Source: Escherichia coli
GTDB taxonomy: Bacteria; Pseudomonadota; Gammaproteobacteria; Enterobacterales; Enterobacteriaceae
Direction: 5' to 3' (one strand)
DNA: 64,000 bases
Assembly: GCF_046105845.1 (NCBI RefSeq)
Contig: NZ_CP151004.1
In this document: positions 49,901 to 51,626 of the stretch, piece after piece
How the letters are laid out: the number at the start of each line of letters is the position of its first letter
Position numbering within the stretch: position 1 is the stretch's first letter
Position numbers: made by a program

Positions 49901-51626
49901 CTGGCGGAGCCGCATCAAACGTGCCGCTGCTGATGGTCAGTACCGCATACGGCGTGGCAATGCGTTCTTCGCCAATCGCCAGACCGCCGTAAACCATGTG
50001 TTTCACTGTCGCTTTACCGTCCTGTACGCTGACGGTGCTGGCATCGTTAGACACCGCCGCTTTAAGGCGATAACCCAGTTTTGCCGCCAGTAATTTGCCG
50101 CGACGGGTATTCGGCAACAGCACCAGACCGTCTGCGCCGTGCTGGCGAATAGTGTCCGCCATGACACCGGCGTAATCTTCGATCATCCGATCGTCCGGTT
50201 TGCCGTTTAATTTCCAGACATGATTAGCGCCTAGCTGGATTGCCTGTGCGCCGTCGGCATCATTGAGGACAAAGGCATTGATTTGATTAGCTAAAGCCTG
50301 CGCACCGTTCATCAGTTCCGGCAGACGAGAAGGGGTATCGCTGAATACCCAGACTTGAGAAAACGTGTTCATAGCATCCCCTGTAATTAAATGACTTTGC
50401 GAAGATTTTCAGCAAATGCGGCGATCTGTTCTTCGCCGTCGCCTTCAATCACGATGCGCTGACGCTCGCGCTGTTTCGGTGCGGCAACCTGTTGTTCTGA
50501 CCAGGCTGCCTCTGCGTTAAAACCGATATCCGCCGCCGACCATACCTGGACTGGCTTTTTCGCCGCGCCGAGAATGGCTTTCATCGAAGGAATTTGTGGG
50601 GAGTTGATATCAGTGGAAACAGCAACAACCGCAGGCAGCGGAATGCTTAAGGTTTCGGTTTCATCTTCCAGTTCGCGCTCAACGGTGAGGATATCTGCCG
50701 TCAGGGAGATAATTTTGCTGACGCCGTTAACTGCCGGAATATTGAGGATTTCGCCTACCAGCAAACCAACCTGCTGGGCATAAAGGTCGGAAGAACCATC
50801 GCCACAGAGGATCAAATCAAAGCCTGCTTTCTGGGCGGCTGCAGCCAGTGCGCTCGCCGTTTGTTGCGGCAGTGCCTGCTCGAACTGGTCATCAATCACC
50901 ACAATCAGTTCATCCGGACCGCGCGATAGCACATCTTTACGCCCTTTGGCGTTGGTCAGGGCTTTACCGCCCACACTTAGGGCCGTCACCTGCGCCTCTG
51001 CTGCCTGTTGCTTTAGCTGGCAAGCCGCTTCAATAGCGTTGAGATCGTATTGGCTTATTTTGGCATCGGCTTTACTGAAGTCTAACGAACCATCAGCATT
51101 ATTGACCGCAATATCCTGTTCATCAGGCACGCACTTATAGCAAGTAATAATCTTCATTGCATCTCCAGAAATCATGAAGGAAACGTCGTTCATATCGGTG
51201 GTGTTAATTACAGATATCACGCCCTTTAATTTGGAAATAAAACTTTAATCACCAATATTGAAAATGTCACACGCAGATAAATCCAACTTTCAATATTGTT
51301 AAGTCCCTCACCAATATTGAAAACATGGCGTAGCAAAAAGAAATTTTCAATATTGCTTTATGGATCACCAATATTGAAAGTCAGATGCTATTTTTTTACT
51401 CACAATCAAACTTATCACATTGATAAACAATGAATATTTACACAAAGACGCCCTGTTTTTACCCGATAAAAAACTGTGACTAACATCACAGAACGCAGCC
51501 AATTGAATACCCATTATGAGTTAGCCATTAACGCGTCCACGAGGTTAATAATAATTATATTAAATGTTAACAAAAATAAAACAAACGGGAACGCAAAATA
51601 AATATTCGTTTTCACAGTGGAATTAA

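What the first reader, a model, noticed from the sequence alone, without database searches (positions are those of the whole stretch)
51245..51385. Array of five CAATATTG-centred half-sites in the divergent cai/fix promoter region
tcaccaatattgaaa (three copies) alternates with its inverse tttcaatattg (two copies) across about 140 bp between fixA and caiT. This matches the known architecture in which the activator CaiF binds paired inverted half-sites to drive both operons. The fifth half-site has no obvious partner and could be a remnant or an extra low-affinity site.
Basis: partly seen in the sequence, partly recalled or inferred. Interest (0 to 1): 0.4.

Follow-up and report, generated by a model that had tools for sequence, protein, structure and literature searches.

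The report
CaiF boxes in cai–fix promoter
The five repeats are the binding-site array of the carnitine regulator CaiF between the E. coli fixA and caiT genes: four are the two published sites, and the unpaired fifth sits inside the fix core promoter and is the only copy kept in every CaiF-carrying lineage examined.

Summary
Five exact CAATATTGAAA 11-mers lie at 51253, 51312 and 51369 (+) and 51288 and 51345 (-), in the 472-bp fixA–caiT intergenic region of an Escherichia coli genome.

Two pairs, TTTCAATATTG-N13-CAATATTGAAA at 51288-51322 and 51345-51379, match the published CaiF operator sequence. The array is therefore already known.

The "remnant or low-affinity" reading of the fifth copy is not supported:
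- Across 80 related loci, the asymmetric 14-mer TCACCAATATTGAA occurs only in this intergenic region and always in one orientation.
- It is present in 51 of 51 loci that hold both caiF and the region. It is absent from the region in caiF-less Shewanella, Ferrimonas and Campylobacter loci.
- The fix-proximal copy is constant, while the number of inverted pairs varies: 0 (Edwardsiella, Hafnia, Leminorella, Limnobaculum), 1 (Yokenella, Atlantibacter), 2 (Escherichia, Salmonella, Citrobacter) or 3 (Proteus).
- It is locked without gaps to a -10-like block across 20 genera, and its flank is unrelated to the flanks of the paired units.

Best reading: a promoter-embedded CaiF box acting at the fix core promoter, as the CaiF homologue GrlA does at LEE1 P1. 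This is inferred, not shown. The published footprints as quoted name only two sites, and the transcription start positions I use come from memory.

The parts
51249..51263 (+). The invariant core is the 14-mer 51249-51262.
   Evidence: Exact copy. Present in 51/51 loci that hold caiF and the intergenic region, always in this orientation. Gapless conservation over 20 genera.
51288..51322 (.). fix-proximal CaiF pair TTTCAATATTG-N13-CAATATTGAAA. Half-sites are 51288-51298 (-) and 51312-51322 (+), with a TCAC prefix at 51308-51311.
   Evidence: Matches the published operator sequence. I could not check which pair is called F1 and which F2.
51345..51379 (.). cai-proximal CaiF pair TTTCAATATTG-N13-CAATATTGAAA. 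Half-sites are 51345-51355 (-) and 51369-51379 (+), with a TCAC prefix at 51365-51368.
   Evidence: I6: 100% complementary arms, 13 nt apart. Published operator. This pair is absent in genera with only one pair.
51297..51312 (+). CRP-like site TGTTA-N6-TCACC nested in the spacer of the fix-proximal pair. It explains the TCAC prefix of the paired boxes.
   Evidence: 2 mismatches to TGTGA-N6-TCACA. Its centre at 51304.5 fits my recollection of Buchet 1998 (CRP site 2 at -69.5 of fix). The pattern is not enriched in the window, so the assignment rests on literature recalled from memory.
51354..51369 (+). Weaker CRP-like site TGCTT-N6-TCACC nested in the cai-proximal pair.
   Evidence: 4 mismatches by my reading (not listed). 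The centre at 51361.5 fits the recalled CRP site 3 at -126.5 of fix. Weak.
51234..51243 (-). Conserved block gAAATAAAAC (fix sense GTTTTATTTC) exactly 5 nt from the box. It contains the -10-like hexamer T[T/A]TTAT (51242..51237), which reads TATTAT in Hafniaceae and Budviciaceae.
   Evidence: Near-invariant and gapless relative to the box in 20 genera.
51242..51270 (-). Promoter-like site GTGACA (51270..51265) - 17 nt - TAAAGT (51247..51242). The unpaired box fills its spacer.
   Evidence: The only - strand promoter-like match in the intergenic region (the number of matches is not above the shuffle expectation). It fits a fix start near 51235 derived from remembered published positions. GTGACA is conserved only in some lineages.
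51207..51221 (-). Conserved block in the fix leader (aatA.A.aTA.CA.g), function unknown.
   Evidence: Gapless with the box in 20 genera. It is a tiny ORF MVFLL... in Hafniaceae and Budviciaceae.
51475..51490 (+). Perfect CRP site TGTGA-N6-TCACA of the cai promoter.
   Evidence: 0 mismatches. Conserved across genera.
51512..51517 (+). cai promoter -10 candidate CATTAT.
   Evidence: Conserved CAT[T/C]AT across genera. The position fits a start near 51524, i.e. the CRP site at -41.5 (recalled from Buchet 1998).
50387..51157 (-). fixA coding sequence.
51630..53144 (+). caiT coding sequence.
58888..59283 (-). caiF, the activator that reads the boxes.
   Evidence: NCBIfam CaiF equivalog at 220.5 bits, cut-off 140. 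Pfam CaiF_GrlA. Weak similarity to GrlA, PDB 4KT5_C.

Best explanation
This is the operator array of the carnitine activator CaiF in the divergent fixABCX/caiTABCDE control region of E. coli. It is better described as three full, same-oriented boxes plus two truncated inverted copies. The full boxes are TCACCAATATTGAA(A) at 51249, 51308 and 51365. The truncated copies are TTTCAATATTG, placed 13 bp upstream of the second and third boxes. The two resulting pairs are the published CaiF sites, and each encloses a CRP-like site. That nested site explains the TCAC prefix of the paired boxes. The unpaired box is not a leftover. It is the ancestral, universally kept CaiF box, built into the fix core promoter. 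It sits 5 nt upstream of a conserved -10-like block. Depending on which -10 is used, it covers about -28 to -14 or about -33 to -19. The proposed mechanism is inferred. One CaiF protomer binds this asymmetric box in a fixed orientation and acts on RNA polymerase at the fix promoter, by direct contact or by reshaping the spacer, as its homologue GrlA is proposed to do at LEE1 P1. The upstream CaiF/CRP pairs are lineage-specific additions in 0 to 3 copies. They would raise occupancy and couple the signal to the distant cai promoter, which has its own perfect CRP site.
For: Shown here:
- Five exact 11-mers, non-random.
- The locus is fixA/caiT with caiF in the window.
- The N13 pairs equal the published operator.
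- The 14-mer with up to 1 mismatch occurs about 130 times in 1.6 Mb of 80 loci plus the window, against about 0.5 expected. Apart from one 1-mismatch hit in a caiF-less Shewanella locus (L070), every hit lies in the fixA-caiT intergenic region and in one orientation. It is present in 51/51 loci with caiF plus the region. No hit falls in that region in the caiF-less Shewanella, Ferrimonas and Campylobacter loci.
- The architecture is one constant box plus 0, 1, 2 or 3 pairs.
- In Providencia the left half-sites have decayed (3-4 mismatches) while the proximal box stays perfect.
- Box, -10-like block and leader block align without gaps in 20 genera.
- The flank of the proximal box is unrelated to the pair flanks: 27% identity against 52-64% between pair units.
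- A promoter-like site GTGACA-17-TAAAGT brackets the box.

From the literature:
- CaiF-based biosensors use the fix promoter as output.
- CaiF belongs to the CaiF_GrlA family. GrlA is reported to act within the LEE1 P1 core promoter, on a spacer without dyad symmetry. I read the LEE1 P1 sequence TTGACA-18-TACACA.

From memory: the Buchet 1998 abstract reports a 50-bp segment overlapping the fix mRNA start as necessary for cai transcription.
Against: - The published footprints, as quoted in accessible papers, name only two CaiF sites (F1, F2). No CaiF contact at the single box is reported. I could not read the primary papers.
- The fix and cai start sites and the CRP positions are recalled from the Buchet 1998 abstract. 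They were checked only for arithmetic consistency with the sequence.
- The two candidate -10 hexamers are 5 nt apart, so the position of the box relative to the start is uncertain by 5 nt.
- The candidate spacer is 17 bp, not the non-optimal 18 bp of LEE1 P1.
- The LEE1 spacer shows no clear sequence similarity to the CaiF box.
- A protein bound between -35 and -10 more often represses.
- One genome, Entomohabitans, has lost the proximal box yet keeps a pair.
Confidence: 0.6

Rival explanations
1. The fifth copy is a negative or limiting operator. CaiF bound between the -35 and -10 of the fix promoter would compete with RNA polymerase. It would cap or delay fix expression relative to cai, or hold fix off when CaiF lacks its effector.
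For: The position inside the promoter-like site GTGACA-17-TAAAGT is the classical place for repression. The literature as quoted attributes activation to the two paired sites.
Against: In Edwardsiella, Hafnia, Leminorella, Limnobaculum and Serratia H1w it is the only box in the region, so CaiF would have no activating site there. Many genera have no recognisable -35 next to the box, as in activator-dependent promoters. The orientation and spacing to the -10-like block are rigid.
Confidence: 0.15
2. The fifth copy pairs outwards with the left half-site of the neighbouring pair (CAATATTGAAA-N24-TTTCAATATTG, 51253-51298). This would form a second kind of CaiF site centred near -40.5 of fix, a class II position.
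For: Arms are 100% complementary, 24 nt apart (I5). The midpoint is about -40.5 if the fix start is at 51235 (my arithmetic, with the start recalled from memory).
Against: This spacing varies between 35 and 37 start-to-start across genera, while the N13 spacing never varies. The partner is decayed in Providencia and absent in the lineages with the lone box. 35 bp centre to centre is long for a 131-residue protein.
Confidence: 0.1
3. The fifth copy is conserved as core-promoter DNA read by RNA polymerase or by another factor, not by CaiF. Its identity to the CaiF half-sites would reflect common descent by duplication.
For: It lies in the core promoter and is locked to a -10-like block. No published CaiF footprint there is quoted.
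Against: 14 invariant bases identical to footprinted CaiF half-sites are far more than a spacer or -35 region needs. The box is found only where caiF is present. By my reading it does not resemble CRP or FNR consensus sites. The CRP pattern search lists it only as a 3-mismatch chance-level hit at 51256.
Confidence: 0.1
4. The fifth copy is a non-functional remnant of a third pair or a weak decoy site.
For: It has no partner, and only two sites are named in the literature as quoted.
Against: It is perfect in 27 of 44 genomes with the proximal array, and most of the mismatches fall at the last base. It is kept in two further families where no pair exists. Its flank is unrelated to the pair flanks. 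It is invariant in every E. coli lineage sampled.
Confidence: 0.05

Closest known systems
CaiF sites F1 and F2 of the E. coli cai-fix regulatory region (Buchet et al. 1999, as quoted in PMC12083890 and PMC3680233)
   Same: Same locus, same organism, same sequence. [quoted passage not shown]
   Different: The unpaired box at 51249-51263 is not part of the published description available to me. It is a single asymmetric box inside the fix core promoter and is more widely distributed than the pairs.
GrlA activation of the LEE1 P1 promoter of EHEC/EPEC (Islam et al. 2011; Padavannil et al. 2013; as quoted in PMC4730234, PMC3130263 and PMC6094958)
   Same: The regulator belongs to the same Pfam family, CaiF_GrlA. 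The target lies within the core promoter region and lacks dyad symmetry. GrlA is handled as a monomer by GrlR.
   Different: LEE1 P1 has an 18-bp spacer, and the proposed mechanism depends on that length. The candidate fix spacer is 17 bp. There is no evident sequence similarity between the LEE1 spacer TTTAATGATAATGTATTT and the CaiF box. The mechanism at fix is untested.
Class II activator sites (activator overlapping the -35 region, such as CRP at -41.5 or MarA/SoxS class II promoters)
   Same: If the conserved T[T/A]TTAT block is the -10, the box covers about -33 to -19. Many genera lack a -35 hexamer there, as at activator-dependent promoters. The orientation is fixed, as for monomeric activators.
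   Different: The position is further downstream than typical class II sites. No contact with sigma or alpha has been shown.
MerR-type spacer-binding activators
   Same: The protein site lies between -35 and -10.
   Different: MerR promoters have 19-bp spacers and a dyad operator. Here the spacer is 17 bp and the box is a single asymmetric one. CaiF is not a MerR-family protein.

Membership tests
CaiF operator (paired F-type site) | Two perfect 11-bp inverted half-sites TTTCAATATTG / CAATATTGAAA separated by 13 bp | tested here: met
   Met for 51288-51322 and 51345-51379. Not met for the fifth copy at 51253-51263: its N13 partner position matches 4/11 by my reading.
CaiF operator (paired F-type site) | Located in the fixA-caiT intergenic region of a genome that encodes CaiF | tested here: met
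   fixA and caiT flank the array. caiF lies at 58888-59283 and scores 220.5 bits against the NCBIfam CaiF equivalog.
CaiF operator (paired F-type site) | Protected by purified CaiF in footprinting or gel shift | not testable with these tools
   Reported for F1 and F2 by Buchet 1999, as quoted. Nothing is reported for the fifth copy in the papers I could read. The primary papers are not held.
CaiF box (single 14-mer TCACCAATATTGAA), as defined here | Co-occurs with caiF and is confined to the fixA-caiT intergenic region in one orientation | tested here: met
   51/51 loci with caiF and the region have it. No hit falls in the region in caiF-less loci. About 0.5 chance hits are expected in 1.6 Mb.
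CRP site | Match to TGTGA-N6-TCACA | tested here: inconclusive
   51475-51490 is perfect. 51297-51312 has 2 mismatches. 51354-51369 has 4 mismatches. The pattern is not enriched in the window. The nested positions agree with CRP sites 2 and 3 as I recall them from Buchet 1998.
GrlA-type core-promoter activation | Regulator belongs to the CaiF_GrlA family | tested here: met
   Pfam PF07180, E = 2e-6. PDB 4KT5_C GrlA, E = 0.001.
GrlA-type core-promoter activation | [quoted passage not shown] | tested here: inconclusive
   The box fills the spacer of the promoter-like site GTGACA-17-TAAAGT. The start site is known to me only from memory, and an alternative conserved -10-like hexamer lies 5 nt downstream.
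GrlA-type core-promoter activation | Non-optimal 18-bp spacer whose shortening bypasses the activator | tested here: not met
   The candidate fix spacer is 17 bp. LEE1 P1 is TTGACA-18-TACACA. The functional test cannot be done here.
MerR-type activation | 19-bp spacer with a dyad-symmetric operator and a MerR-family protein | tested here: not met
   The spacer is 17 bp and the box is single and asymmetric. CaiF is in the CaiF_GrlA family.

The most novel reading that the evidence does not exclude
The textbook picture of CaiF as a dimer on two inverted repeats may be a derived, lineage-specific elaboration. In this reading the primary and ancestral operator is a single asymmetric 14-bp box read by one CaiF protomer inside the fix core promoter. 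That mode of action would be shared with the virulence regulator GrlA. The inverted pairs would be CaiF-CRP-CaiF sandwiches added 0 to 3 times during the evolution of Enterobacterales. The same inner face of CaiF would meet CRP in the pairs and RNA polymerase at the promoter.
Probability: 0.4. Interest if true: 0.45.

Novelty: already known. Interest (0 to 1): 0.3.

Why it matters
The array is the known CaiF/CRP control region of the carnitine operons, so the finding itself is not new. Two points add something. First, the unpaired copy is the evolutionarily constant element, and it sits in the fix core promoter. That gives a concrete, testable hypothesis for how CaiF, and by extension the CaiF/GrlA family, activates transcription. 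Second, it is practically relevant because carnitine biosensors are built on the fix promoter. The single box and the number of pairs are obvious handles for tuning them.

Tried and rejected
- **Primary papers.** Buchet 1999 and Buchet 1998 are not held. Searches for their numerical site positions, for promoter names and for the motif itself gave no further source. Start-site and CRP positions are therefore from memory.
- **Decayed third pair.** Rejected. The N13 partner position matches 4/11, and flank identity is 27%.
- **Sixth CaiF box in the cai promoter spacer** (CAATTGAATAC, 51500-51510). Rejected. Only an AATA[C/T] motif next to the -10 is conserved, with different geometry.
- **Autoregulatory box at caiF.** None was found within 10 kb in any locus. 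The 1-mismatch 11-mer at 59175 lies inside the caiF coding sequence, and together with the one at 6450 it is within chance expectation.
- **Structured RNA.** There is no Rfam family; the only hit is a sub-threshold match to a plant miRNA hairpin. The low folding energy (z = -3.05) simply reflects the inverted repeats. The array lies between the two divergent start sites, so most of it is probably not transcribed.
- **Sequence similarity between the LEE1 P1 spacer and the CaiF box.** None is convincing.
- **Variation in half-site number among E. coli strains.** None was found in the lineages sampled.
No matrix is available, so consensus scans with mismatches were used instead.

Full report
**1. 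Observation**

Window 51100-51700 is the 472-bp region between fixA (ATG at 51157, - strand) and caiT (ATG at 51630, + strand). CAATATTGAAA occurs exactly five times. It is on the + strand at 51253, 51312 and 51369, and on the - strand at 51288 and 51345. With one mismatch allowed there are 7 hits in 64 kb against 1.7 expected, and 0 of 100 shuffles reach 7. The three + copies carry the same TCAC prefix, giving 16-nt direct repeats spaced 59 and 57 bp. The two - copies each lie 13 bp upstream of a + copy.

**2. Locus**

- The 601-bp stretch matches 5396 of 5426 complete E. coli genomes, under the annotations fixA and caiT.
- K-12 MG1655 has the same five copies.
- caiF lies at 58888-59283 (- strand). 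It scores 220.5 bits against the NCBIfam CaiF equivalog, matches Pfam CaiF_GrlA, and is weakly similar to GrlA in PDB 4KT5.

**3. What is known**

Two open papers quote Buchet et al. 1999. [quoted passage not shown] 51288-51322 and 51345-51379 are exactly that. I could not read the primary papers. I therefore cannot say which pair is F1, or whether the fifth copy was ever remarked on.

From my memory of the Buchet 1998 abstract (not verified with the tools):
- The two start sites are 289 bp apart.
- A perfect CRP site lies at -41.5 of cai.
- CRP sites 2 and 3 lie at -69.5 and -126.5 of fix.
- A 50-bp segment overlapping the fix mRNA start is needed for cai transcription.

These numbers fit the sequence. 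The perfect CRP site is at 51475-51490, which puts the cai start near 51524, downstream of the conserved CATTAT. It puts the fix start near 51235. CRP sites 2 and 3 then fall at 51304.5 and 51361.5. Those are the centres of TGTTA-N6-TCACC and TGCTT-N6-TCACC, nested in the two 13-bp spacers. This explains the TCAC prefix of the two paired boxes.

**4. The fifth copy in the promoter**

A consensus scan finds one promoter-like site on the fix strand, GTGACA-17-TAAAGT at 51270..51242. The number of such matches is not above chance. The fifth copy with its TCAC fills the spacer of this site, about -28 to -14 from a start at 51235.

**5. Comparative evidence**

A CaiT-based scan of one genome per species returned 80 loci. 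I located fixA, caiT and caiF in them and scanned the intergenic regions.

- *Distribution of the box.* The 14-mer TCACCAATATTGAA with up to 1 mismatch occurs about 130 times in 1.6 Mb, where about 0.5 is expected. Apart from one 1-mismatch hit in a caiF-less Shewanella locus (L070), every hit lies in the fixA-caiT intergenic region, with the TCAC side toward fixA. It is present in 51 of 51 loci that contain both caiF and the region. No hit falls in that region in the Shewanella, Ferrimonas and Campylobacter loci, which have no caiF within 10 kb.
- *One constant box plus n pairs.*
  - n = 0: Edwardsiella, Hafnia, Leminorella, Limnobaculum, Serratia H1w.
  - Two direct boxes 27 bp apart: Budvicia.
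  - n = 1: Yokenella, Atlantibacter, Pluralibacter, Trabulsiella and two unnamed Enterobacteriaceae.
  - n = 2: Escherichia, Salmonella, Citrobacter, Phytobacter and others.
  - n = 3: eight Proteus species.
- *Spacing.* The spacing within a pair never varies. The spacing between pairs, and from the box to the first pair, varies by 1-5 bp.
- *Conservation of the proximal box.* It is as well conserved as any paired copy, with a mean of 0.45 mismatches against 0.24-0.81. In Providencia it stays perfect while the left half-sites have decayed.
- *Rigid module.* The box, a block aAAATAAaAC 5 nt toward fixA, and a third block in the leader align without a single gap in 20 genera. In fix sense the second block reads GT[T/A]TTATTT and contains a -10-like T[T/A]TTAT. 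In the lone-box clade this is TATTAT.
- *Not a decayed pair.* The 44 nt on the fixA side of the proximal box are 27% identical to the equivalent part of the paired units. The paired units share 52-64% with each other.
- *One exception.* Entomohabitans has lost the proximal box.

**6. Within E. coli**

The 156-bp array is full-length and at least 95% identical in 5384 of 5390 genomes. In K-12, O157:H7, ATCC 11775, ST131 and TUM17668, all substitutions and one 1-bp insertion fall between the copies. The number of copies does not vary in the lineages sampled.

**7. Mechanism**

*Shown or published.* CaiF, activated through the carnitine pathway intermediate, binds the paired sites and turns on fix and cai together with CRP.

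*Inferred here.* The single box is a functional CaiF site that belongs to the fix core promoter. It is bound by one protomer in a fixed orientation. It acts on RNA polymerase directly or through the spacer. The pairs are add-ons that flank a CRP dimer and help reach the cai promoter.

The positional precedent is GrlA, a member of the same family. It is reported to activate LEE1 P1 through the core promoter, on a spacer without dyad symmetry. I confirmed that the LEE1 P1 sequence is TTGACA-18-TACACA, but I see no sequence similarity to the CaiF box.

There are two candidate -10 elements:
- TAAAGT fits the remembered start site.
- T[T/A]TTAT is the better conserved across genera, and would put the box at about -33 to -19, overlapping the -35 position.

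Either way the box is inside the core promoter.

**8. Rivals**

| Rival | Main evidence against |
|---|---|
| Limiting or repressing operator | It is the only box in the lone-box clades, and many genera have no -35 next to it. |
| Everted pair with the neighbouring left half-site | That spacing is variable, and the partner is absent or decayed in several lineages. |
| Promoter DNA not read by CaiF | 14 invariant bases are identical to footprinted half-sites, and the box is found only where caiF is present. |
| Remnant | Contradicted by the conservation pattern. |

The main weakness of my reading is that the literature as quoted reports only two footprinted sites.

**9. Verdict**

The array is the known CaiF/CRP operator region of a very well studied locus, so I rate it already known and of modest interest. 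The added value is the comparative result: the "orphan" is the constant, promoter-embedded element, and the pairs are variable. I did not find this stated in the papers I could read.

Noticed in passing
window 51398-51487: A hypervariable patch lies between the cai-proximal CaiF pair and the perfect CRP site. It is only 53-80% identical (mostly 63-70%, in 30-column windows) among this window, K-12, another E. coli, Escherichia MOD1-EC7003, E. whittamii and E. albertii. The array on one side and the cai promoter immediately downstream are mostly 93-100% identical in the E. coli strains. The whole 601-bp region falls into three identity bands across 5396 genomes. This is far above neutral within-species divergence and is unexplained.
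   Followed up: partly
window 51207-51221; L046, L047, L049, L052, L022, L043, L050 (fix leaders): A conserved block in the fix leader aligns without gaps with the CaiF box in 20 genera. In Hafniaceae and Budviciaceae it reads GAATCATGGTATTTCTATTG and opens a tiny ORF MVFLL... of 6-16 codons, ahead of a 220-320 nt leader. In the window it overlaps a GTG at 51220 that is in frame with fixA, but that frame is not kept in Citrobacter.
   Followed up: partly
L037 (Entomohabitans teleogrylli), intergenic positions about 140-230: This is the only genome with caiF and the region in which the promoter-proximal box is lost (AAATAAAAAC-TCAC-ccgacg). One standard N13 pair is kept about 70 nt further from fixA.
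   Followed up: partly
L025 (Yokenella regensburgei), whole 324-bp intergenic region: The control region is compact. The single CaiF pair, with its nested CRP-like site, sits about 58 bp upstream of the start site implied by the cai -10 candidate. There is no separate perfect CRP site, so one pair appears to serve both promoters.
   Followed up: no
L048 (Budvicia aquatica), intergenic positions 297-343: Two full boxes ATCACCAATATTGAAA lie in direct orientation 27 bp apart, with no inverted partner.
   Followed up: no
L036, L038, L039, L030 (Providencia): The left half-sites of the pairs carry 3-4 mismatches, while the promoter-proximal box is perfect. The pairs may be decaying in this genus.
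   Followed up: no
window 59175-59185 and 6450-6460: There are two one-mismatch copies of the 11-mer. One lies inside the caiF coding sequence. The count is within chance expectation, and no full 14-mer box occurs near caiF in any locus.
   Followed up: yes
window 51630-53141 versus L002 and L003: CaiT and FixA of the window are closer to the E. albertii representative (99.6% and 98.8%) than to the E. coli representative of the species collection (97.6% and 96.9%). The intergenic region, in contrast, is 99.8% identical to E. coli strain 118UI. The identity of the source strain was not pursued.
   Followed up: no
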